Shown in pieces: positions 52,991 through 64,000 of a DNA stretch of 64,000 bases. The notes below the pieces were generated by a model. The model searched no databases, was not told where the DNA came from, and saw only the letters and a program-made list of their open reading frames with translations. The DNA is from an uncultured Actinomycetota bacterium (GTDB taxonomy: Bacteria; Actinomycetota; Actinomycetes; JACCUZ01). The stretch covers positions 1,203,518-1,267,517 of the forward strand of contig CAVOOW010000006.1 of the NCBI GenBank assembly GCA_963697675.1, written 5' to 3'. Position 1 is the first letter of the stretch, and the number at the start of each line of letters is the position of its first letter. The translations under genes and the position numbers were made by a program.

Positions 52991-54451
52991 GTGCCTGTTG
53001 AGACGCCCGCCCCCCGCGACGGCCTGCAAGAGGTACGGCGCCGGTTGATCGCGGAGCTGATGCGGCGTGGCGCGATCTTCGACGAGCTCGGCCGGCGGTT
53101 CCAGGACGCCGGTCACGAGCTGGCTCTGGTGGGCGGCACCGTGCGCGACATCCTGCTCGGCCGTCCGTCACCGGACCTCGATTTCACCACCGATGCCCGG
53201 CCGGAGCAGATCACCGCGCTGCTGCGCGGTTGGGCCGACGCCTGGTGGGAGGTAGGTGCGGCTTTCGGAACGGTCGGCGGCCGCAAGGGGGACGCCGTGA
53301 TCGAGGTGACGACCTACCGCGACGAGGTCTACCGGCACGACTCGCGCAAGCCCGAGGTGACTTTCGGCGACTCCCTGGAGCACGATCTGGTGCGCCGTGA
53401 CTTCGCTGTCAACGCCATGGCGGTCACGCTGCCGGAGATGACCTTCGTCGATCCGCACGACGGGCTCGGCGACATCGGGCGCCGCGTGTTGCGCACGCCG
53501 GGTCGCCCGGAGGACTCGTTCAACGACGACCCGTTGCGCATGCTGCGCGCTGCCCGGTTCTCGGCAACGCTCGGCTTCGACGTCGACCCCACCGTGGTGT
53601 CGGCCATCACCGAGATGGCCGGTCGCATCTCGATCGTGTCGGCGGAACGCGTGCGGGACGAGCTGGTCAAGCTCATCTGCGCCCCGCAGCCGCGCCGCGG
53701 CCTCACGCTGCTGGTCGACACCGGGTTGGCCGACCACATCCTGCCCGAGCTGCCGAAGCTGGCGCTCGAGATCGACGAGCATCACCGGCACAAGGACGTC
53801 TACGAGCACACGCTCACGGTGCTCGAGCAGGCCATCGACCTCGAGGAGCCGGGCGCCGCACCCGACTTCGTGCTGCGGTTCGCCGCGCTGATGCACGACG
53901 TGGGCAAGCCCAAGACCCGTCGCTTCGAGCCCGACGGCGGGGTCTCGTTCCACCACCATGAGGTCGTCGGCGCGAAGCTGACCGCCGCCCGGATGCGGGC
54001 CTTGCGGTTCCCCAACGACGTGACCGCGGATGTCTCCCGGCTCGTCGAGCTCCACCTGCGATTCCACGGATACGGCACGGGGACGTGGACCGACTCCGCC
54101 GTACGCCGCTATGTCGCCGATGCCGGCCCGCTGCTGGACCGCCTGCACAAGCTGACCCGGTCGGACAGCACCACCCGCAACCGACGCAAGGCGATGCAGC
54201 TGTCGGCGGCCTACGACGACCTCGAGGAACGGATCGCCCGGCTGCGTGAGCAGGAGCAGCTGGAAGCGATCCGGCCGGATCTGGACGGCAACGCGATCAT
54301 GGCCATCCTCGGGGTGCCGCCCGGTCCGGTGATCGGGCGGGCGTGGGCCCATCTGAAGGAGGTGCGTCTCGACCAGGGGCCGTTGCCACCCGAGGCGGCT
54401 GAGGCCGAGCTGCGCCGCTGGTGGGCCGACCAACCCGAGTCGCCCCCCTGA
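52991..54451 (+). CDS. cca: CCA tRNA nucleotidyltransferase
   Basis: [20 protein letters not shown] polymerase-beta head and HD domain ([11 protein letters not shown]); GTG start. Confidence 0.85.
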
Positions 54452-54470
54452 CCCCCCGCGTTGACCATGC

Positions 54471-54508
54471 GGAATCGACCACGTTCAGCATGCTGGCGGA
54501 CGGTTCGC
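54471..54508 (+). repeat. 38-bp repeat copy A (GGAATCGACCACGTTCAGCATGCTGGCGGACGGTTCGC)
   Basis: Identical at 37 of 38 positions to the inverted copy at 55950-55992. Confidence 0.8.
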
Positions 54509-54569
54509 CATGCCTGCACGCCCGGCAAGGCGTCCTTTCACCTGGCACAGCAATCCGCCTCACCGGCGG

Positions 54570-55871
54570 TCACGCGAGTTCGGCGGAGGAAGTCGTGGCC
54601 GGGCTGCGGGAAGCCCGGCCGAAGACCAGGGCGGTAATCGCATAGCCGCCGGCGACAACGGCGAAGACGGCCGGAGAGTTGCCGTCGGCGGGCAGGGCCA
54701 GCGCCCCGAAGGCCGCGGCTGAGACGAAGGACACGTTGAACAGCACGTCGTAGAAGGAGAACACGCGACCCCGGTAGGCGTCGTCGATCGACTCCTGCAC
54801 GATCGTGTCGACGCAGATCTTCGAGCCCTGTGCGGCGACGCCGACCACGAAGGCGCCGACGAGCAGCATCCATTCCTGTAGGGCCACGACGTAGACCGCC
54901 GACGCCGCAGCTGCGAACGCGAAGCAGGTCGTGATCCACGTCGTCTTGCGCACGCGATGGGTGATCTCAGGTGTGATCACGGCCGCGAGGAAGAAGCCGA
55001 GTCCTGATGCGGCGAACGCTGAGGCCAGTCCGGCGAGACCCGCGTCGACGTCGTCGGGGTCGTTGAAATAGCTGCGGAACAGCAGGATTCCCGAAATGGT
55101 CGAGATGCCGTAGAAGAAGCGGTGCGCGGCGATCGCCGCCAACGCCCGGCCTGCCGCTCGGTGCGTCCACACGTGGTGCGCCCCGTCGACCAACCCGCGG
55201 GCCACGCGACGTACCGCTTCTCGTGTTTGTGCCGGCTCGTCCGCGAGGTCGGGCCCCAGCAGGTCGCGGTCCATGCGAGCCGCAACCATGGCGGAGATGA
55301 CGTAGCCGAGCGCTGCGACGACGATCACCTGCGCGTCGGCCGCGCTGCCCTCGCCGAAGAGTTTCTTGAGGCCGAACCCGATGCCGGCGCCGCCGATCGC
55401 GACGATCGTGCCGCTCGTGGTCGACACGCTGTTGGCCATGACGAGCTCCGCGCGTACGACGACGTGCGGCAGGGCCGCGGACAGGCCGGCGAGGAAGAAC
55501 CGGTTGACCGACAGGCAGGCCAGGACTGCGACATAGAGGGTCGGGCCGGTGACCTGTGCCGCGACGAGCGCCCCGACGCCGAGCACCATCGCGGCGCGCA
55601 GCAGGTTGGAGAACACCAGAATCTGCCGGCGCCGCCATCGGTCGAGCAGGACTCCGGCGAACGGTCCGACCAGCGAATAGGGCAGCAGCAGTGTCGCGAA
55701 TGCGGCCGCCACACTGGTCGCGGAGGTCTGCTTCTCCGGCGAGAAGAAGAACAGGCTGGCGAGTGCCGCCTGGAAGGCGCCGTCGGCGGCTTGCGAGGTC
55801 AGCCGGGTGCCGTAGAGCCGTCGAAAGTCACGATGACGTACGACGGCGCGCAGGTCGCCGGCAAAAGACAC
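54570..55871 (-). CDS. MFS transporter
   Basis: 12-TM major-facilitator architecture; 433 aa. Confidence 0.8.
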   Translation of the reverse strand: MSFAGDLRAVVRHRDFRRLYGTRLTSQAADGAFQAALASLFFFSPEKQTSATSVAAAFATLLLPYSLVGPFAGVLLDRWRRRQILVFSNLLRAAMVLGVGALVAAQVTGPTLYVAVLACLSVNRFFLAGLSAALPHVVVRAELVMANSVSTTSGTIVAIGGAGIGFGLKKLFGEGSAADAQVIVVAALGYVISAMVAARMDRDLLGPDLADEPAQTREAVRRVARGLVDGAHHVWTHRAAGRALAAIAAHRFFYGISTISGILLFRSYFNDPDDVDAGLAGLASAFAASGLGFFLAAVITPEITHRVRKTTWITTCFAFAAAASAVYVVALQEWMLLVGAFVVGVAAQGSKICVDTIVQESIDDAYRGRVFSFYDVLFNVSFVSAAAFGALALPADGNSPAVFAVVAGGYAITALVFGRASRSPATTSSAELA

Positions 55872-55900
55872 CCCGCCAGGCTATGCGCCCTCCCCTGAGG

Positions 55901-55992
55901 GGAATCGACCACGTTCAGCAGGGCCGCGGACGGTTCGCAAGGCGTGCGGGCCTTGCGAACCGTCCGCCAGCATGCCGAACGTGGTCGATTCC
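55901..55992. repeat. 92-bp palindrome formed by two head-to-head copies (B, B') of the 40-bp repeat
   Basis: Left arm 55901-55943, centre GTGCGG, right arm 55950-55992. Lies between ino1 and the MFS gene. Confidence 0.8.
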
Positions 55993-56008
55993 GGAACCCG
56001 AGCTGGGG

Positions 56009-57088
56009 CTAGCGGTCGACCTCGCCGCGGATGAACTTCTCGACGAGGTCGCGCGCGGTGTCGTCGTCGTGCTGCTCGGGCGGGGACTTCATGAAGTAGG
56101 ACGACGCGGAGAGCAGCGGTCCGCCGATGCCGCGGTCCAGGGCGATCTTCGCGCACCGGATGGCGTCGATGATCACACCGGCCGAGTTGGGCGAGTCCCA
56201 GACCTCGAGCTTGTACTCGAGGTTCAGCGGCACGTCGCCGAAGTTGCGGCCCTCGAGCCGGACGTAGGCCCACTTGCGGTCGTCGAGCCACTGCACGTAG
56301 TCCGACGGTCCGATGTGTACGTTGCGCGCGCTGAGCTTGTTCTCCATGTTGGACGTGACGGCCTGGGTCTTCGAGATCTTCTTCGACTCGAGGCGGTCGC
56401 GCTCGAGCATGTTCTTGAAGTCCATGTTGCCGCCGACGTTGAGCTGGTAGGTCCGGTCGAGGATCACGCCCCGGTCCTCGAACAGCTTCGCCAGCACGCG
56501 GTGCGTGATGGTGGCGCCCACCTGCGACTTGATGTCGTCACCGACGATCGGAACGCCGGCGTCCTCGAACTTCTTCGCCCACGCGGGGGTTCCGGCGATG
56601 AAGACCGGGAGTGCGTTGACGAATCCCACGCCGGCGTCGATGGCGCACTGCGCGTAGAACCTCGCCGCGACCTCGGACCCCACTGGCAGGTAGCAGACCA
56701 GTACGTCGACCTGTGCGTCCCGCAGGACCTGAACGACGTCAACCGGCTCCTCGTCGGACTCGGTGATCGTCTCGCGGTAGTACTTGCCGAGCCCGTCGTG
56801 GGTGTGACCGCGCTTGACCGTGATGCCCGTGGGCGGCACGTCGGCGATCTTGATGGTGTTGTTCTCGCTCGCGAGGATTGCCTCCGCGAGGTCCTGGCCG
56901 ACCTTCTTGGCATCCACGTCGAAGGCGGCGACGAACTTCACATCGCTGACGTGGTAGTCGCCGAACTGCACGTGCATGAGGCCGGGCACGCGGCCCTGCG
57001 GGTCGGCATCCTTGTAGTACTCGACGCCCTGAACCAGCGACGCGGCGCAGTTGCCTACGCCGACAATGGCCACTCGAACGGAACCCAT
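56009..57088 (-). CDS. ino1: inositol-3-phosphate synthase
   Basis: [29 protein letters not shown]-binding N-terminus; 359 aa. Confidence 0.9.
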
Positions 57089-57136
57089 GCGTTGCTCCTT
57101 TGATCTGACTCGGTTGTTGATCGTGCTCGGGCGAAG

Positions 57137-57718
57137 CTAGGTAGTGCGGTCTGCGGGGTGCTCGATGGTGCTGGTGTCCTGGCGCTCGCTCTCGATGAGC
57201 TCGTTGAGCCACCGGACCTCACGCTCGACGGACTCGAGCCCGTGGCGCTGCAGCTCGAGGGTGTAGCTGTCGACGCGCTCCCGGGTTCGCGCCAGCGCCG
57301 AGCGGAACCCGTCGATGCGCTCCTCGAGACGCGACCGGCGCCCTTCGAGAATGCGCATCCGGGTGGCCGCGTCGGTGCGGGCGAAGAAAGCGAAGTGCAC
57401 GCCGAAACCGTCGTCCTCCCAGGAGGACGGGCCGCTCTCGGCGACGAGCTCCTGGAACCTTTCCTTACCCTCGGCTGTGAGCCGGTAGACGATGCGCGAC
57501 CGTTTTCCTGCCAGCGGCGCGGCAGCCCCGGCGACCTCCTCGGCGATCCAGCCCGCCTGCAGCAGGGTCTTCAGGCACGGGTAGAGCGATCCGTAGGAGA
57601 AGGCACGGAACGATCCGAGGACCGCGTTGCAGCGCTTGCGCAGCTCGTATCCATGCATCGGGCTCTCGTGCAGGATGCCGAGGACGGCGAACTCCAGAAC
57701 GACTGGCCGCTTGGCCAT
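57137..57718 (-). CDS. PadR-family transcriptional regulator
   Basis: Winged HTH (HGYELRKRCNAVLGSFRAFSYGSLYPCLKTL). Confidence 0.85.
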   Translation of the reverse strand: MAKRPVVLEFAVLGILHESPMHGYELRKRCNAVLGSFRAFSYGSLYPCLKTLLQAGWIAEEVAGAAAPLAGKRSRIVYRLTAEGKERFQELVAESGPSSWEDDGFGVHFAFFARTDAATRMRILEGRRSRLEERIDGFRSALARTRERVDSYTLELQRHGLESVEREVRWLNELIESERQDTSTIEHPADRTT

Positions 57719-57744
57719 CCGCCCTCCCTCCAGAGTTCACCCGA

Positions 57745-57774
57745 TATATCGAGTCGATACATCGAGACGATATG
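57745..57774. promoter_or_regulatory. tandem AT-rich palindromes TATCGAGTCGATA / CATCGAGACGATA in the PadR divergent promoter (operator candidate)
   Basis: Inverted-repeat half sites TATCGA/TCGATA read from sequence; an AT-rich island in a GC-rich intergenic region. Confidence 0.4.
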
Positions 57775-57910
57775 CAGAGATCGGCCGATCGGCAAGTCGA
57801 AGCGCGAAATCGCTCGCCGGTGCCGGCGGCGGTCCTGGTCGTCCACGGGCGGGGAATCTTCCGTCAGCAACAGCAAACGGCGGCGGCCCACGTCGCCGTA
57901 CGCTTGACGG

Positions 57911-58324
57911 GTGTGGTCCCAGCGGGCGGTGATCGACTACTCCCTGGCGCGGCGGGCGACGCTCACCGAGCTGTTCACGCGTGGGGTGACCTCCCTGGAC
58001 GACGCGTGCGACGCCCACCCCTACCTGCTGCGGGCGGCGCGCTTCTACGGGGAGCCGACCCGCCAACCGTGCCCGGTCTGCCGGCGCGTGAACCTGACCC
58101 ATGTGACCTACGTCTACGGCGACGAGCTCGGCCAGTACTCGGGACGCATCAAGTCGACCACGGAGCTCGAGGCGATGGCCCGCGAGCACGGGGAGTTCAA
58201 GGTCTATGTCGTCGAGGTCTGCCAGGAATGTTCATGGAACCACCTGGCCCTCTCCTACGTCCTCGGTGATGGGACCCCGCGCAAACCGCCACGTCGGCGG
58301 CACACCGTGGAGGACGACGACTAG
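57911..58324 (+). CDS. conserved hypothetical protein (Rv0049-like)
   Basis: 137 aa; CPVCRR...CQEC putative Cys4 pattern; conserved position between PadR and the PBP. Confidence 0.5.
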   Translation: MWSQRAVIDYSLARRATLTELFTRGVTSLDDACDAHPYLLRAARFYGEPTRQPCPVCRRVNLTHVTYVYGDELGQYSGRIKSTTELEAMAREHGEFKVYVVEVCQECSWNHLALSYVLGDGTPRKPPRRRHTVEDDD

Positions 58325-58461
58325 GCCAGATCGGGACGCCGAGGCAGGAGTTGGACGATCGCAACGATGGAAGCCGACTGAGCAGGCGCTTGGGAGGGTA
58401 GGTCTCCGGTCGCCGTTAGGCTGGGCAGTCGCCCGCGCCCTACCCGCCGCGAGACCACGAC

Positions 58462-60621
58462 GTGAAACCCGCCGACTGGGGCAGCACCAGCTTCAGTGAT
58501 CCCCACGACCGGACGAGGACAGTGAGAGTCGACTACCCACGCCAGGCACACGACGGCTTCCGTCGCTTCATCCCCTCCTTCCGGCAGCTGCTCGCGCTCG
58601 GACTGATCGGCTTCCTCATGCTGGTGGCGGCCTTCAGCGTCGCTTACGCCAAGACGAGCATCCCCACCCCGAACGAGATGGTCAGCGCGCAGACGACGGT
58701 CGTCTACTTCCACGACGGCAAGCATGAGATCGGGCGGTTCGGCAGCCAGAACCGGATCAACGTCAACCTCGACCAGGTGCCCGACTTCGTGCAGAAGGAG
58801 GTGATCGCGGCCGAGGACCGGTCGTTCTACCGGAACAAGGGGATCTCGCCGACGGGCATCGCCCGAGCGTTCTGGAACAACCTTCGGACCGGCTCGACCC
58901 AGGGCGGGTCGACGATCACCCAGCAGTACGCGAAGAACGCGTACCTGTCGCAGGAACGCACGTACACCCGCAAGCTGAAAGAGTTCTTCATCGCCGTCAA
59001 GCTCGCCCGGCGCGATGACAAGGACAAGATCCTGCAGGACTATCTCAACACGATCTACTTCGGCCGCGGCGCCTACGGCATCCAGACGGCCTCGCAGGCC
59101 TACTTCGGCAAGGACGTCAGCCAGCTCACCATCGCCGAGGGTGCCGTGCTGGCCTCCGTGATCCGGTCCCCGGCCGGCTACGACCCCGTCGCGCATGCCG
59201 ACCGGCTGGAAGGCCGGTTCAACTACGTGCTGGACGGCATGGTCAGTGAGAAGTGGCTCTCCCCGACGCAGCGCGAGGGCCTCCAGGTGCCTCCGACGGT
59301 GGCGAAGGGCAAGCCCAAGGGCGGCACCAACTACTTCCTCATGGACACGGTCCGCAAGGAGCTCAAAGCGAAGGGGTTCACCGACGCCGAGATCGACCTC
59401 GGTGGCTTCAAGGTGATCACGACGTTCGACAAGCGCTCGCAGACGGCGGCCGTGAAAGCGGTGCGCCAGGAGCGCCCGACGATCAAGGCGAAGGGCGTGC
59501 ACATCGGTCTGTCGGCGGTGGAGGCAGGCACGGGCCGGGTCATCGCGATGTACGGGGGTGAGACCGCGGGCAATCTCAACGAAGCGACTCAGGCTCGCAT
59601 CCAACCGGGCTCGGCCTTCAAGGCGTTCGCGCTCTCGGGGGCGCTCCAGGACGACATCAGTCTCAAGAGCCGGTTCCAGGGCACCAGCCCCTACAAGGTC
59701 CCGGGGACGGACGCTGAGGTCAACAACGAGTTCAATCAGTCGTACGGCGCGAACGTCGACCTCGTCAAGGCAACCGAGGACTCCATCAACACGGCCTACG
59801 TCGACCTGGCGGTGCAGATGGGACCGCAGAAGGTCGTCGACGCGGCTATCGCCGCGGGCATTCCCGAGGACACGCCGGGGCTGAACGCCAACCCGGTCGT
59901 ACCCCTCGGGACGGCCTCGGTGCACAACATCGACATGGCCAGCGCCTACTGCACCATCGCGGCGCAGGGCCAGCAGTCGGCATGGCACACGGTCGACGAG
60001 GTGAAGACGCCGAACGGCGGCACGCGTTACAAGGCAGCGCCGAAGAAGACACGCGTCTTCCCGAAGGACGTCATGGCCGACGCGACCTATGCGTTGCAGC
60101 AAGTCGTGCGCAGTGGCACCGGCACGGAGGCGGAGAAGCTCGGCCGACCGGCGGCAGGCAAGACCGGCACCGCGGCGCTGCGACCCGACACGACGACCTC
60201 GGCCTGGTTCGTCGGCTTCACCCCGCAGCTGTGCGCAGCGGTCGACTTCTACAAGGGCACCGGCAGGGCCGACCTCGACGGCGTCGGCGGGTTGCCGACG
60301 TTCTTCGGCGGTGAATACCCGGCGCGCATCTGGACGGCGTTCATGACCGCGGCGATGGAGGGCAAGAAGGTCGAGGACTTCCCGCCGCGCGCCGACGTCG
60401 GCCAGACACTGAACCCGAAGCCGACCAAGAAACCGACTCCCACGCCGACACCGACGACGCCGACACCGACGCCGACGCCGACGACGACCACGCCGACACC
60501 GAGCGAGTCGCCGACGTTGACTCCGTCGACTCCGAGCCCGTCCGACACGCTCACCGTGTCGCCGTTGGGTCAGGATGCGTCACCAGGTCGTCCTGCACAC
60601 AGCAGCGACGGCGAGCCATAG
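58462..60621 (+). CDS. ponA: class A penicillin-binding protein (transglycosylase/transpeptidase) with Pro/Thr-rich C-terminal tail
   Basis: GT51 motifs (EDRSFYRNKGIS, RKLKEF), transpeptidase SxxK/KTG (GKTGTA), and a PT-repeat linker at 60400-60560. Confidence 0.85.
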   Translation: MKPADWGSTSFSDPHDRTRTVRVDYPRQAHDGFRRFIPSFRQLLALGLIGFLMLVAAFSVAYAKTSIPTPNEMVSAQTTVVYFHDGKHEIGRFGSQNRINVNLDQVPDFVQKEVIAAEDRSFYRNKGISPTGIARAFWNNLRTGSTQGGSTITQQYAKNAYLSQERTYTRKLKEFFIAVKLARRDDKDKILQDYLNTIYFGRGAYGIQTASQAYFGKDVSQLTIAEGAVLASVIRSPAGYDPVAHADRLEGRFNYVLDGMVSEKWLSPTQREGLQVPPTVAKGKPKGGTNYFLMDTVRKELKAKGFTDAEIDLGGFKVITTFDKRSQTAAVKAVRQERPTIKAKGVHIGLSAVEAGTGRVIAMYGGETAGNLNEATQARIQPGSAFKAFALSGALQDDISLKSRFQGTSPYKVPGTDAEVNNEFNQSYGANVDLVKATEDSINTAYVDLAVQMGPQKVVDAAIAAGIPEDTPGLNANPVVPLGTASVHNIDMASAYCTIAAQGQQSAWHTVDEVKTPNGGTRYKAAPKKTRVFPKDVMADATYALQQVVRSGTGTEAEKLGRPAAGKTGTAALRPDTTTSAWFVGFTPQLCAAVDFYKGTGRADLDGVGGLPTFFGGEYPARIWTAFMTAAMEGKKVEDFPPRADVGQTLNPKPTKKPTPTPTPTTPTPTPTPTTTTPTPSESPTLTPSTPSPSDTLTVSPLGQDASPGRPAHSSDGEP

Positions 60622-62016
60622 TGCCCGACAGGATGGACGCCGTCGCCCCTTCGCGCGACGACGACCTCGTACGCCTCGGTAGCGAGGTGATCGGCGGCCC
60701 ACTCGGTCACCACGCCCGCACCGACTTGCATCGGTGGTGGACGCCGATGCGAGTCGTGCTCGTCCTGGTCTTCGCAGTGAGTGCCCTCGGTGTCATCAGC
60801 AAGCAGCCGTGCCGGGCCGACGGCTGGACCGCTCCCGCGCAGTACACGCACGCGTGCTACAGCGACATACCGGCGCTCTACTTCGCGCGCGGGCTTGCGG
60901 ATGGTCAGTTCCCCTACATCGACCAGCCGCGTGCGGAGCAGGTCGAGTATCCCGTGCTGACCGGGCTCGCGATGTGGATGACGGCGAAGCTGGTGCCGTC
61001 CCACGACAGCCCGACGAAGCGCGCGCGCTGGTACTTCGACCTCAACGTGATCGCCCTCGCGGTGGCGCGCCGCGGTGGCCGCCGCGGCAACGCTGCGCAC
61101 CGCCGGGCGGCGCCCGTGGGATGCGGCGCTGTTCGCGGGCGCGCCGATGCTCGCGCTGACCGGCACGATCAACTGGGACCTGTACGCCGTCGCGCTGCTC
61201 GCCCTGGGGATGCTGGCGTGGTCGCGCGAACGGTCCTTGGCCGCGGGTGTCCTGATCGGTCTCGCCGCGGCCGCGAAGTTCTATCCGCTGTTCATCCTCG
61301 GACCGTTGCTCGTGCTCTGCCTGCGTGCGGGGAAGATGCGCGAGTTCTACGTCGCGCTCGGCGGCGCGGTGGTCGCGTGGCTGGCGGTCAACCTGCCCTT
61401 CATGCTGGCCGACTTCGACGGTTGGTCGCGCTTCTACGTGCTGAGCCGGGAGCGAGGCGTCGGCTTCAGCTCGATCTGGTTCGTGCTGAGCCAGCAGGGC
61501 TACACGCTGTCGGAGTCGCGTCTCAATCTGGTGGCCGGAAGTCTGTTCGTGCTGGCCTGCGCGGTGATCGCGGCACTGGCCCTGCGGGCGCCGCGGCGCC
61601 CGCGACTGCCGCAGCTCGTGCTGCTGGTCGTGGCCGCATTCCTGTTGACCAACAAGGTCTATTCACCGCAGTACTTGCTGTGGCTCATCCCGCTCGCCGC
61701 CCTGGCGCGACCGCGATGGCGCGACCTGCTGATCTGGCAGGCCGGCGAGGCGATCCACTTCGTCGGCATCTGGATGCTGATCGCGGGCTACCCGCCAGGC
61801 AACGCGAATCGCGCGCTGGGTGAGGACGGCTATGACGTCACCGTTCTCGCGCACATCGCGGGGACTGTGTGGCTGATGGCCATGGTCGTGCGCGACATCC
61901 TCCGCCCCGAGAACGACCCCGTACGCCTCGATGGCTCCGACGACCCCGCCGGTGGTGTCCTCGACCACGCCCCCGACGCCTTCCCCGCCGCGAGCCGATC
62001 CCCGGCCGTCAGTTGA
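60621..62016 (+). CDS. DUF2029/GT87-like polytopic membrane protein (Rv0051-like), apparent frameshift near 61070-61100
   Basis: The N-terminal 150 aa lie in the frame of ORF 60621; the remainder (MLALTGTINWDLYAVALLALG...) lies in the frame of ORF 61075. The junction is in the GC-rich stretch gcggtggcgcgccgcggtggccgccgcgg. Confidence 0.6.
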
Positions 62017-63322
62017 CCACGTTTGGTAGGCGGGGCGTCGCGTCAGCAGGCATGCACGCCTGCTGAGCGCGACAGTTCGCCTCGTGAGGCGGTTCGCGGT
62101 TCGTGCGGCCACCGGGTTTCCACAGCCGCCGTCATGTGGGCGACGGGCAGGTGGCCTGTGTACAGCCGAGTTCGGTGCCTTCGTACGCGGCACCCTCGTC
62201 CAGGTGGACGTCACCCAGGAACTGGATATCACCCAGGCTCTCGCCGGTCTGGCACCCGGCCTTGCCGCGCATGCCGCGACGCAACGCGGCGTGTTCACTG
62301 GCGACCAAGCCCGTGACGCGCACTACAGCGACGGTGAGATACAGCGGCTGCGCCGGTCCAAGCGACGACCCGAGCAGTGGCTCTCGATCCGGCGCGGCGT
62401 CTACGTCGTCAAGCAGTGGTACGACGGGTTGCGCGCCCTTGGAACAACACCGGGTGAAGCTTGCTGCATTGGCGCTGGTGCTGACCGAGCCTGCGGTGCA
62501 GAGTCACGTCTCGGCCGCGGTCGAGCTCGGACTCGAGATGCTCGAGCCTGACCTGTCGCGAACTCCATGTCACCAGGGCAGAGCTGAAGGGCTCGCGACA
62601 CGAAGCCGGGGTCCATCACCACGCCGGCGGAGCTGCCTGTGGGCGATGTGCTCCAGACGTACGGACGGGTCAGTGTCACGGGAGCCGCGCGTACCGCCGT
62701 CGACATCGCACGCGAGAGCGAACGTCTCGAGCAAGGTGTTGCCGTGTGTGACTCCGCCCTGCGCGGTGGTGTCACGCGGGAGGAGCTCACCGAGGTCATG
62801 ACGCGGTGTCGCAGTTGGCCGGGTGCGCGGCTGGCCTCACGTGCGGTGTCGATGGCCGACGGTCGAGCGGACAACCCCGGCGAGTCGTGGTCGCGCGTCA
62901 TCCTCGTGGCGAACGGGCACGCACCGACCGATCTTCAGCGCGAGTTCTTCGACGACCGCGGGCGTGCCGGCATCGGTGACTTCTTCTGGGAAGAGGAGAT
63001 GGTCGTCGGCGAGTTCGACGGGAAGCTGAAGTACGCCGTTGCGGAAGGTGCCACAGCCGACGAGGCGGCGCGCGCCATCATCGCGGAGAAGCGTCGCGAG
63101 GATCGGCTGCGGGCAATGGGGCTGGAGTTCGTGCGCTGGGGTTTCGGCGAGCTCTACCGGCCGCGACTGTTCGTGGCCAAGGTCGCTGCCGCCACGTGCG
63201 CGCGGTGCGGCCCGGTGGCGTTGAGCTAGTCGGAGAGTCGACCACTTCAGCAGGCGAACGGTCGCCTCAACAGGCGTGCACGCCTATTGGCGCGACGCCC
63301 CGCCTACCAAACGTGGTCAACT
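62011..63322. mobile_element. REP13E12-like ~1.3-kb unit with ~75-bp imperfect terminal inverted repeats (outer 32 bp identical)
   Basis: Left end AGTTGACCACGTTTGGTAGGCGGGGCGTCGCG at 62011-62042; its exact reverse complement ends at 63322. The inner arms stay ~75% similar (CAGCAGGCATGCACGCCTGCTG core). Confidence 0.6.
62084..63229 (+). pseudogene. DUF559 endonuclease-like protein, frameshifted
   Basis: N-terminal AbiEi-like region (RGVFTGDQARDAHYSDGEIQRLRRS...RRGVYVV) in one frame; DUF559 C-terminus (GDFFWEEEMVVGEFDGKLKY...RLRAMGLEFVRW) in another. Confidence 0.55.
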
Positions 63323-63356
63323 GCGGGGCGGTGCGGGGCGGCGGCGGCGGCGCGGG

Positions 63357-63908
63357 CTAGCGGGCGGTGATGCGGTCGGGGCGCAGGGTGGTCATCCGGA
63401 CCTCGCAGCAGAGCTCGTCGCCGATGGCGGGTGGGCGCACCGTCGTCGGCATCAGCAGCAGCGACACCTGCATGTGCGGTGGTTCGGCGAACCAGCGCGC
63501 GCGACCGGCCCAGCGGAACGGCGAGAGCGACCGGTTGGCCGCGGCCAGCGATCCGACGGCGAGCTCCTTGGCGCGGCCGACCGGCCCGCGCACGGTTCGC
63601 GGCGCCTCGAGAGCAACCCCGTGCGCCGTACCCCCGCTGACCACCACGAGCCAGCTGTCCCGAAGCGCCTTCCGCTGCCGGTAGCCGTACCGCGTCCCCG
63701 CGGCCAGCCGGTGCACGTCGAGCACTGTGCCGCGGGCGGTGAACGCGCTTCGGTCGCCCAGCCACAGCGAGGTCCCGACCCGCGGCCGGAACATGGTCGT
63801 CGGGAATGCCGCGCGCAGCTCGGCCAGCTCGGTCGCCGTCAGGTGGCTGACCCACGCGACGTCGGTCGGCAGGCCCGCGGCCGTCAGGCGGCGCAACCAG
63901 TCGCCCAC
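63357..63908 (-). CDS. hypothetical protein
   Basis: 183-aa ORF with coding-like GC3; no recognisable motif. Confidence 0.35.
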   Translation of the reverse strand: MGDWLRRLTAAGLPTDVAWVSHLTATELAELRAAFPTTMFRPRVGTSLWLGDRSAFTARGTVLDVHRLAAGTRYGYRQRKALRDSWLVVVSGGTAHGVALEAPRTVRGPVGRAKELAVGSLAAANRSLSPFRWAGRARWFAEPPHMQVSLLLMPTTVRPPAIGDELCCEVRMTTLRPDRITAR

Positions 63909-64000
63909 CTCGCTGGCGGGGTCGCAGCCGCCGTGCCGGTCGATCGGCAGGTGGAAGGCGAAACCCTCCAGCCGTACGCCGTTCAGCAGCTCGCGTACGT

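What the first reader, a model, noticed from the sequence alone, without database searches (positions are those of the whole stretch)
62011..63322. REP13E12-like 1.3-kb element with ~75-bp terminal inverted repeats carrying a frameshifted DUF559 gene
The outer 32 bp of the two ends are perfect reverse complements and the inner arms stay similar around a CAGCAGGCATGCACGCCTGCTG palindrome. The left end overlaps the TGA stop of the DUF2029 gene. The cargo is an AbiEi-N / DUF559 (Vsr-like endonuclease fold) gene split over two frames. Size and cargo match the mycobacterial REP13E12 repeat family (a recalled family, not searched), which serves as prophage attachment sites.
Basis: partly seen in the sequence, partly recalled or inferred. 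Interest (0 to 1): 0.6.

Follow-up and report, generated by a model that had tools for sequence, protein, structure and literature searches.

The report
Nuclease gene bracketed by dispersed palindromes
A gene for a DNA-binding nuclease (frameshifted here) sits between two inverted copies of an ~88-base palindromic repeat that is also scattered across related actinomycete genomes; this resembles the REPIN-RAYT partnership of proteobacteria but uses an unrelated enzyme, and it is not a REP13E12 element.

Summary
A perfect 33-bp inverted repeat (62010-62042 / 63291-63323) extends to ~85 nt and brackets a 1,017-nt gene broken by four 1-nt insertions. The REP13E12 label fails: that family is defined by DUF222 proteins, and this protein is a full AbiEi homologue fused to a Vsr/DUF559-fold nuclease.

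Each "terminal repeat" is itself a nearly complete copy of a dispersed palindromic element. A metagenome scan with the terminus found about 43 further sites. Most are strict 84-nt hairpin elements lying just 3' of genes.

The gene plus its arms occupies one slot (GT87 | gene | alanine-racemase-like) in every orthologue fetched. Its divergence broadly tracks the flanking genes, and it is under purifying selection. It is essentially absent from plasmids and phages.

Across Actinomycetes, 67 of 87 loci of this protein family have flanking arms. The arms are locus-specific and sometimes recur nearby.

Best reading: a REPIN-RAYT-like partnership with a different enzyme, apparently undescribed. That the protein acts on the repeats is inferred, not shown. 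The frameshifts may be assembly errors, because dN/dS against an intact relative is 0.09.

The parts
62010..62093 (+). Left flanking copy of the palindromic repeat ('type 1'). It has an outward-facing terminal module CAGTTGACCACGTTTGGTAGG, a central hairpin GTCGCG-TCAGCAGGC-ATGCAC-GCCTGCTGA-GCGCGAC, and a degenerate inner terminal module. It overlaps the GT87 stop codon at 62014-62016.
   Evidence: An nhmmer profile built from 30 dispersed 84-nt elements matches 62010-62082 at E 4e-17. DNA fold -25.6 kcal/mol, z -3.8.
62094..62203 (+). 110-nt spacer between the left repeat copy and the start codon, presumed to hold the promoter and 5' UTR. It is partly conserved in L001 and L003 (for example TTTCCACAG).
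   Evidence: No sigma-70-like consensus was found.
62204..63224 (+). Gene for an AbiEi-like (winged-helix plus AbiEi C-domain) protein fused to a Vsr/DUF559-fold PD-(D/E)xK nuclease. In this window it is broken by four 1-nt insertions at 62433, 62559, 62624 and 63192. Removing them restores a 338-codon ORF that is 98% identical to the intact protein P0001.
   Evidence: sequence. (AbiEi). (structure model pLDDT 93.5; Vsr-type fold).
63236..63323 (-). Right flanking copy of the same repeat, inverted relative to the left copy. It is a nearly complete element: perfect outer terminal module, central hairpin, and a degenerate inner terminal module GTCGACCAC-TTCAGCAGG.
   Evidence: nhmmer matches profile positions 2-90 at 63236-63323, E 2.3e-19.
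55897..55996 (.). A second-subfamily ('type 2') palindromic mini-element, GGAATCGACCACGTTCAGCAGG...CCGAACGTGGTCGATTCC, immediately 3' of ino1. Four close relatives (up to 99.3% identical in the flank) carry a type-1 84-nt element at exactly this site.
   Evidence: E 4e-6; dG -49.1, z -10.2.
54462..54570 (.). A type-2 arm-like repeat copy between the convergent cca/PolyA_pol and MFS genes. The orthologous site in L124 and L108 holds a type-1 arm.
   Evidence: E 3e-4.
60621..62016 (+). Upstream neighbour, a GT87 (DUF2029) glycosyltransferase gene. Here it carries a +1 G at 61067 relative to L120 and L141. Its stop codon lies inside the left repeat copy.
63357..64000 (-). Downstream neighbour, an alanine-racemase-like gene (Ala_racemase_N in relatives). 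It is convergent with the cargo gene and runs off the end of the window.

Best explanation
The 1.3-kb 'element' is a chromosomal gene for a sequence-specific DNA-binding nuclease, bracketed by two inverted copies of an ~85-90-nt palindromic extragenic repeat. The protein is an AbiEi-type winged-helix module fused to a Vsr-like PD-(D/E)xK domain. The same repeat is dispersed, mostly as 84-nt hairpin-forming mini-elements just 3' of genes, in the genomes of close relatives.

The arrangement is a functional analogue of the REPIN-RAYT partnership. One vertically inherited gene sits in a fixed extragenic slot, flanked by and presumably acting on its own lineage-specific family of non-autonomous palindromes.

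Shown: the anatomy, the dispersal, the family-wide association, the locus-specific matching of the two arms, the broadly vertical descent under purifying selection, and the recent replacement of one repeat type by another at fixed sites.

Inferred: the winged-helix part binds the conserved terminal and hairpin blocks of the repeat. The nuclease then nicks or cuts there, and the break is repaired by copying from another repeat copy. This would spread, homogenise and overwrite the elements. The flanking copies would also serve as the gene's own operator sites.

In this window the gene reads as inactive (four +1 insertions). This is either very recent decay or sequence error.
For: (1) Each arm is a copy of a dispersed element. 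A metagenome scan with the 20-nt terminus gave 64 contigs, of which only 3 are this locus. The rest hold 34 strict 84-nt palindromes, 3 longer ones and about 39 single arms, making 45 distinct sites including the two arms of this locus. A profile of the mini-elements matches the right arm end to end.

(2) The mini-elements form near-perfect hairpins (dG -54, z -16). None lies inside a called gene, and 12 of 17 with both neighbours called lie between convergent genes, mostly within about 25 nt of a stop codon.

(3) The association is family-wide. All 10 loci in the orthologous slot and 57 of 77 relatives at other loci have upstream/downstream inverted repeats above the 99th percentile of a cross-locus null. 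Arm sequences differ between loci but match within each locus. The terminal motif GAYCAYGT is in both arms of the 20 closest loci, against 0.016 expected per arm, and is absent from more distant relatives.

(4) Extra copies of a locus's own arm occur within +/-5 kb in 10 of 65 loci (15 copies). Foreign-arm controls gave 0.

(5) The slot is fixed and descent is broadly vertical. The GT87 | gene | Ala_racemase_N arrangement is present in all orthologues fetched, down to ~50% identity. Gene and flank identities correlate at r = 0.75. dN/dS is 0.16-0.34.

(6) The family is chromosomal: 3 weak partial hits in 72,556 plasmids and 1 in 50,697 phages, against more than 593 hits in actinomycete genomes and 2,408 cluster representatives at E <= 1e-30.

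(7) The nuclease motifs E226, D258, E269, D271 and K275 are invariant in 68 sequences. The fold matches I-Bth0305I, NGO0050 and Vsr, and the N-terminal 200 residues match AbiEi.

(8) Turnover is ongoing. Strains 98.5-99.3% identical in the flank carry a different repeat type at the same site, and the alignments end exactly at the element boundary.
Against: No experiment or direct computation shows that the protein binds or cuts the repeat.

In the 64-kb window itself, type-1 copies occur only as the two arms. The dispersal is therefore seen in relatives' contigs, not in this genome.

Metagenome contigs can be chimeric at repeats; L094 versus L149 is an example. Linking the mini-element contigs to genomes with an intact gene rests on similar identity to the window and on one contig, L153, that holds both.

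Other genes are also flanked by two copies: the MFS gene in the window and a DUF4440 gene in L152. Being bracketed is therefore not unique to this gene.

Vertical descent is not clean. L009 and L014 have 86-91% identical flanks but only 57% identical genes and different arms.

20 of 77 distant relatives show no arms.
Confidence: 0.6

Rival explanations
1. The unit is an autonomous IS-like or REP13E12-like transposon. The whole 1.3-kb unit moves as one, using its terminal inverted repeats and the encoded nuclease as transposase, and the 84-nt elements are its internally deleted MITE derivatives.
For: Long inverted ends carry a conserved terminal motif and inner repeated motifs. Gene-less derivatives have the structure terminal module - hairpin - terminal module. 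Relatives of the gene plus arms sit at many different loci over deep time, several per genome in Tomitella. One lineage has an empty slot with the same synteny (L160). A two-arm unit carrying a DUF4440 gene is absent from the orthologous site in L122.
Against: The orthologous unit stays in one slot down to ~50% protein identity, its divergence tracks the flanks, and it is under purifying selection. No target-site duplication is visible at any locus or mini-element. There is no second copy in the window. The family is essentially absent from plasmids and phages. Each arm is a complete element rather than a simple end. REP13E12 specifically is excluded by its DUF222 cargo.
Confidence: 0.13
2. 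The gene is an orphan AbiEi-type regulator or defence gene. The palindromes are its operator and terminator sites, at its own gene for autoregulation and at many 3' ends as a regulon or as structural sites. The repeats spread or persist by host processes unrelated to the protein's nuclease domain.
For: The N-terminal 200 residues are a bona fide AbiEi homologue. From my own knowledge of the AbiE system, AbiEi proteins repress their promoter by binding inverted repeats. The elements sit at 3' ends between convergent genes, where hairpins can act on transcripts. The conserved blocks are symmetric, as expected for sites bound by a dimer.
Against: There is no AbiEii toxin partner next to the gene in any locus. 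The catalytic residues of the fused nuclease are invariant. A regulon would not explain repeats that share about 85 nt of sequence, locus-specific arms across dozens of paralogues, or swapping of whole element types at fixed sites between near-identical strains.
Confidence: 0.2
3. The gene is a free-standing homing endonuclease gene inserted into a long palindromic intergenic target, such as a bidirectional terminator. The two 'arms' would then be the two halves of the disrupted target.
Against: Each arm is a complete copy of an element with its own hairpin, not half of one. The same element occurs at about 43 other sites. The one empty slot seen (L160) has no palindrome; the convergent genes abut.
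Confidence: 0.05

Closest known systems
REPIN-RAYT systems (REP doublets plus REP-associated tyrosine transposases; Bertels and Rainey)
   Same: A single chromosomal gene is flanked by copies of a ~100-nt palindromic extragenic repeat. The repeats are dispersed in extragenic space. The gene occupies the same extragenic slot across relatives, is mostly vertically inherited and is absent from plasmids. Each gene type has its own repeat type. These features of REPIN-RAYT are as described in bioRxiv 10.1101/2021.07.10.451892; the parallels here come.
   Different: The enzyme is unrelated. It is an AbiEi winged-helix module plus a Vsr-like PD-(D/E)xK nuclease, not an HUH/tyrosine IS200-like transposase. 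The host is Actinomycetes. The elements have strongly conserved terminal modules. Whole element types are exchanged at fixed sites. Mobilisation by the protein is not shown.
AbiE type IV toxin-antitoxin / abortive-infection system (AbiEi antitoxin, e.g. Rv2827c, S. agalactiae AbiEi)
   Different: No AbiEii nucleotidyltransferase gene is adjacent. The protein has an extra C-terminal nuclease domain, and the gene is bracketed by a dispersed repeat.
Vsr / DUF559 / I-Bth0305I group of PD-(D/E)xK endonucleases
   Different: The Pfam PF04480 model matches none of the 68 members at E <= 0.01. The domain is fused to a full AbiEi module, and the substrate is unknown.
REP13E12 repeats of the Mycobacterium tuberculosis complex
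   Same: An actinobacterial DNA unit of roughly 1.3-1.4 kb, described as repeated and recombinogenic.
   Different: REP13E12 proteins are defined by DUF222 (PF02720), and this cargo has no such domain. Here the gene-bearing unit is one per slot rather than multicopy. There is no evidence for a phage attachment site.
IS elements and their MITE derivatives
   Same: The unit has inverted ends, and there are short gene-less derivatives carrying the same ends.
   Different: There are no target-site duplications, no known transposase family, and a fixed syntenic position with broadly vertical descent.

Membership tests
REP13E12 | Encodes a 13E12-repeat protein (Pfam DUF222, PF02720) | tested here: not met
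   Definition from PMC13157036. Pfam scans of the reconstructed protein and of 68 relatives list only AbiEi_4, AbiEi_1 and CMD.
REP13E12 | The ~1.4-kb unit is present in several copies per genome | tested here: inconclusive
   There is one copy in the 64-kb window. Of 45 sites carrying the terminus in metagenome contigs, the gene is at one locus only. The whole source genome could not be searched.
REP13E12 | DNA similarity to M. tuberculosis REP13E12 and presence of the phiRv1 attB core | not tested
DUF559 (Pfam PF04480) | Match to the Pfam model at its threshold | tested here: not met
   No PF04480 hit at E <= 1 for the reconstructed protein or at E <= 0.01 for 68 relatives.
DUF559 (Pfam PF04480) | Vsr-type PD-(D/E)xK fold with conserved acidic residues | tested here: met
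AbiE (type IV TA / Abi) system | AbiEi antitoxin module (winged helix plus C-domain) | tested here: met
   PADLOC AbiEi models give E 1e-16 to 1e-21 over residues ~10-208. AbiEi_4 hits 46 of 68 members. Rv2827c and S. agalactiae AbiEi are structural matches.
AbiE (type IV TA / Abi) system | Adjacent AbiEii nucleotidyltransferase toxin gene | tested here: not met
   The neighbours are GT87 and Ala_racemase_N in every orthologous locus.
REPIN-RAYT | Single chromosomal gene flanked by copies of its repeat | tested here: met
   this locus; 67 of 87 loci of the family.
REPIN-RAYT | About 100-nt palindromic repeats dispersed in extragenic space | tested here: met
   About 43 further sites in relatives' contigs, never inside called genes, forming strong hairpins. 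In the window itself only two copies of a second subfamily were found.
REPIN-RAYT | Gene in the same extragenic slot, vertically inherited, absent from plasmids | tested here: met
   (r = 0.75, with one clear exception, L009/L014).
REPIN-RAYT | Enzyme is an HUH / catalytic-tyrosine (IS200-like) transposase | tested here: not met
   The protein is AbiEi plus a Vsr-like nuclease. It is therefore an analogue of the family, not a member.
REPIN-RAYT | The enzyme duplicates or mobilises the repeats | not testable with these tools
   Needs biochemistry or mobilome sequencing.
IS / MITE (TIR transposon) | Target-site duplication flanking the inverted ends | tested here: not met
   No direct repeat was seen at the ends of the window unit, at 40+ related loci or at 37 mini-elements. 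Exact ends are uncertain by a few bases.

The most novel reading that the evidence does not exclude
This family (about 2,400 clusters at 50% identity) is a previously unrecognised class of repeat-propagating enzyme. A winged-helix-guided, Vsr-like nicking nuclease recognises its cognate palindrome and triggers repair-templated copying from another copy. This would be a homing-like gene-conversion mechanism acting on non-coding palindromes. It would spread them to the 3' ends of genes, keep their two halves and the two gene-flanking copies in register, and let one element type overwrite another at the same site. It would be an actinomycete counterpart of REPIN-RAYT that evolved independently from an AbiEi antitoxin and a mismatch-type endonuclease.
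Probability: 0.3. Interest if true: 0.9.

Novelty: new variant of a known kind. Interest (0 to 1): 0.78.

Why it matters
The only well-studied case of a vertically inherited gene living in long-term partnership with its own population of short palindromic repeats is REPIN-RAYT, which depends on an IS200-type enzyme. A second, mechanistically unrelated and very large family with the same genomic logic in Actinomycetes (Nocardia, Rhodococcus, Gordonia, Nocardioidaceae, Propionibacteriaceae and many uncultured lineages) would show that such partnerships evolve convergently.

It would also give a function to thousands of proteins annotated only as 'AbiEi family antitoxin domain-containing'. It would explain a class of actinomycete intergenic hairpins that break assemblies and sit where terminators do. 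The in-situ exchange of element types between near-identical strains offers a directly testable handle on how such repeats are copied.

Tried and rejected
1. Pfam and NCBIfam on the reconstructed protein gave only a weak AbiEi_4 hit and no DUF559. Sequence search of PDB gave nothing useful, with a single sequence or a profile. Structure prediction was needed to settle the domains.

2. Rfam on 54000-64000 gave only sub-threshold miRNA-hairpin look-alikes on the type-2 element, so no known RNA family applies.

3. The promoter/terminator scan of 61900-63450 gave nothing informative.

4. The afdb50 fold library was unavailable.

5. The look-up of the Kitasatospora homologue P0143 failed.

6. An apparent 'mini-element versus cargo element at the same site' case (L094/L128 versus L149) shares only one flank. 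It may be a contig chimera at a repeat, so I did not use it as evidence.

7. No type-2 termini were found in any of the 160 loci fetched. The gene partner of the type-2 elements, if there is one, could not be identified, and there is no paralogue in the window.

8. Literature searches found no description of this arrangement in the held library (DUF559 with inverted repeat; DUF559 with AbiEi; DUF559 alone; extragenic palindromic with Actinobacteria; AbiEi with palindromic and transposase).

9. I considered an invertible (phase-variation) switch, because the gene is flipped in L005-L008. No invertase is present and only one lineage differs, so I treat this as an occasional recombination between the inverted copies.
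Full report
**1. The observation**

The region 62010-63323 is bounded by a real inverted repeat. The repeat finder reports arms 62002-62067 / 63266-63331, 66 nt at 88% complementarity. The perfect core is 33 bp, CAGTTGACCACGTTTGGTAGGCGGGGCGTCGCG. It occurs only at 62010-62042(+) and 63291-63323(-), against 0 expected in shuffles. Aligning the two ends shows similarity running inward for about 85-95 nt.

The stop codon of the upstream GT87 (ex-DUF2029) gene, TGA at 62014-62016, lies inside the left arm.

The cargo reads through three frames. Against a 97.6%-identical intact relative (L001; also L120 and L141), the window has four single-base insertions in the coding sequence at 62433, 62559, 62624 and 63192. 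Removing them restores a 338-codon ORF that is 98% identical to protein P0001.

**2. The cargo protein**

Pfam gives only a weak AbiEi_4 hit and never DUF559, for the reconstructed protein or for 68 relatives. PADLOC AbiEi models cover residues ~10-208 at E 1e-16 to 1e-21.

PMC3424549 groups 1cw0, 3hrl and 3r3p as the VSR/DUF559 group. The residues E226, D258, E269, D271 and K275, together with the EKxRED...R...RW block, are invariant.

The protein is therefore a complete AbiEi module fused to a Vsr-type PD-(D/E)xK nuclease. No AbiEii toxin gene is adjacent in any locus.

**3. Not REP13E12**

The 13E12 repeat family is defined by Pfam DUF222, PF02720 (PMC13157036; gene lists). That domain is absent here.

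**4. A fixed slot**

Every orthologue fetched lies in the same arrangement: PadR - DUF5318 - PBP1A - GT87 - [gene] - Ala_racemase_N - FemAB. This holds for L001, L003, L004, L005-8, L009, L011, L012-14 and L159, down to ~50% identity. Every one has 76-107-nt inverted arms.

Gene identity tracks flank identity (r = 0.75 over 35 pairs). dN/dS is 0.16-0.34.

There are three exceptions or variations:
- In L005-L008 the gene is inverted relative to its flanks.
- L009 and L014 have 86-91% identical flanks but 57% identical genes and different arms.
- One more distant lineage with the same synteny has an empty slot in which the convergent genes abut (L160).

**5. The arms are copies of a dispersed repeat**

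A metagenome scan with TTGACCACGTTTGGTAGSCG returned 64 contigs. Only three are this locus. The others contain:
- 34 elements of exactly 84 nt, with consensus CAGTTGACCACGTTTGGTAGGCGAGGCGTCGCCTCAGCAGGCGTGCACGCCTGCTGAAGCGACGCCCCGCCTACCAAACGTGGTCAACTG
- 3 elements of 127-129 nt
- about 39 single arms

Together these make 45 distinct sites, counting the two arms of this locus.

The terminal block and the hairpin block are nearly invariant, and the stretch between them varies. The consensus folds as a DNA hairpin of -54 kcal/mol, z -16. None of the mini-elements lies inside a called gene. Most follow a stop codon by 3-25 nt, and 12 of 17 with both neighbours called lie between convergent genes.

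An nhmmer profile of these elements matches the window's right arm over its whole length (63236-63323, E 2e-19) and the left arm over 62010-82 (E 4e-17). The 'terminal inverted repeats' are therefore two nearly complete copies of the dispersed element. In each, the outer end is perfect and the inner end is degenerate.

Rfam knows no such family. The terminus is absent from viral contigs.

**6. The association is family-wide**

The genome scan found more than 593 relatives in Actinomycetes. The best is only 54% identical, so the source species is not in that collection. Loci L015-L091 (33-47% identity) lie at other genomic positions, several per genome in Tomitella.

An upstream/downstream inverted-repeat score exceeds the 99th percentile of a cross-locus null in all 10 slot loci and in 57 of 77 other loci. 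Arm sequences are locus-specific, often near-perfect 60-70-nt palindromes, and match within each locus.

The motif GAYCAYGT occurs in both arms of the 20 loci with the closest proteins and in none of the more distant ones (0.016 expected per arm). The ends therefore co-vary with the protein.

Extra copies of a locus's own arm occur within +/-5 kb in 10 of 65 loci. Foreign-arm controls gave 0.

The family is essentially absent from plasmids and phages and is large, with 2,408 cluster representatives at E <= 1e-30.

**7. Turnover**

The window contains two copies of a second subfamily ('type 2', GGAATCGACCACGTTCAGCAGG...). One is at 54462-54570 and the other at 55897-55996, flanking an MFS gene.

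At both sites the orthologous contig L124 (95.5% identical) carries type-1 elements. At the ino1 site, contigs L157 (98.5% identical) and L158 (99.3% identical) also carry type 1, and their alignments to the window stop exactly at the element boundary.

One element type has thus replaced another in place on a very short time scale.

Separately, a DUF4440 gene bracketed by two type-1 arms in L152 and L155 is missing, arms included, from the orthologous site in L122.

**8. Interpretation**

The best-supported reading is a REPIN-RAYT-like partnership (features of that system) built on an unrelated enzyme. Section 5 shows the dispersal, section 6 the family-wide association, section 4 the fixed slot and broadly vertical descent, and section 7 the turnover.

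What is inferred: the protein binds and nicks its cognate palindrome, and repair copies the element. That would explain three things: the spread of the elements, the concerted evolution of the two arms, and the in-situ replacement of one type by another.

The rivals are an autonomous transposon, a pure regulator or defence gene, and a homing endonuclease in a palindromic target. Each is weighed in its own section of this report.

I found no description of this arrangement in the held literature.

**9. Caveat on the frameshifts**

The coding sequence has 4 frameshifting insertions in 1,021 nt. The other coding sequence that could be compared with close relatives has 1 in 5,684 nt (Fisher p = 0.002).

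However, the repaired gene differs from L001 with dN/dS of only 0.09, so there is no sign of relaxed constraint. All the events are +1 G/C insertions, and the neighbouring GT87 gene has one too. The gene either died very recently or the insertions are consensus errors. The reads would decide.

Noticed in passing
window 55897-55996 and 54462-54570 (compare L124 1675-1758 and 259-340; L156, L157, L158): Two 'type-2' palindromic elements flank the MFS gene 54570-55871. At exactly these sites, relatives 95.5-99.3% identical in the flanks carry 'type-1' elements instead. One repeat type has replaced another in place.
   Followed up: yes
window 61067: The GT87 gene (60621-62016) carries a +1 G relative to L120 and L141, which splits it into two ORFs (60621-61823 and 61075-62016). 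Together with the four insertions in the cargo gene, this raises the possibility of consensus errors in this stretch of the assembly.
   Followed up: partly
L005-L008 (gene 4001-4981 in L005): In this lineage the gene between the two repeat copies is inverted relative to GT87 and Ala_racemase_N, as expected from recombination between the inverted flanking copies.
   Followed up: partly
L009 vs L014: The flanking PBP, GT87 and AlaR proteins are 86-91% identical, but the bracketed gene is only 57% identical and its arms have different sequences. This looks like a cassette-like replacement or very fast co-divergence of the gene and its repeats at the same slot.
   Followed up: partly
L158 ~1140-2125: An IS30-like gene (HTH_38) is inserted inside the type-1 mini-element downstream of ino1, about 31 nt into the element. 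This recalls IS elements that target REP sequences.
   Followed up: no
L152 3527-4149 (= L155 321-943) vs L122 1800-1900: Two type-1 arms in inverted orientation bracket a small DUF4440/SnoaL-like gene. The orthologous intergenic site in L122 (81% identical) has neither the gene nor the arms.
   Followed up: partly
L160 5380-5620: This is an empty slot. In a more distant lineage with the same synteny, the Ala_racemase_N and GT87 genes converge with no gene and no palindrome between them.
   Followed up: partly
window 63327-63342: A 16-nt GC-rich stretch (GGCGGTGCGGGGCGGC) just outside the right repeat copy is absent from L141 and L153, while L001 has a longer CGG-rich expansion there. The tract between the element and the AlaR stop codon is variable and of low complexity.
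   Followed up: no
window 60473-60480: A 6-nt in-frame length difference from L120 lies in the Pro/Thr-rich C-terminal tail of the PBP1A gene (58462-60621).
   Followed up: no
L113 1603-1729, L136 1677-1805, L154 7744-7872: Three mini-elements are 127-129 nt rather than 84 nt. They carry about 45 nt of extra, unrelated-looking sequence between the terminal module and the hairpin.
   Followed up: no
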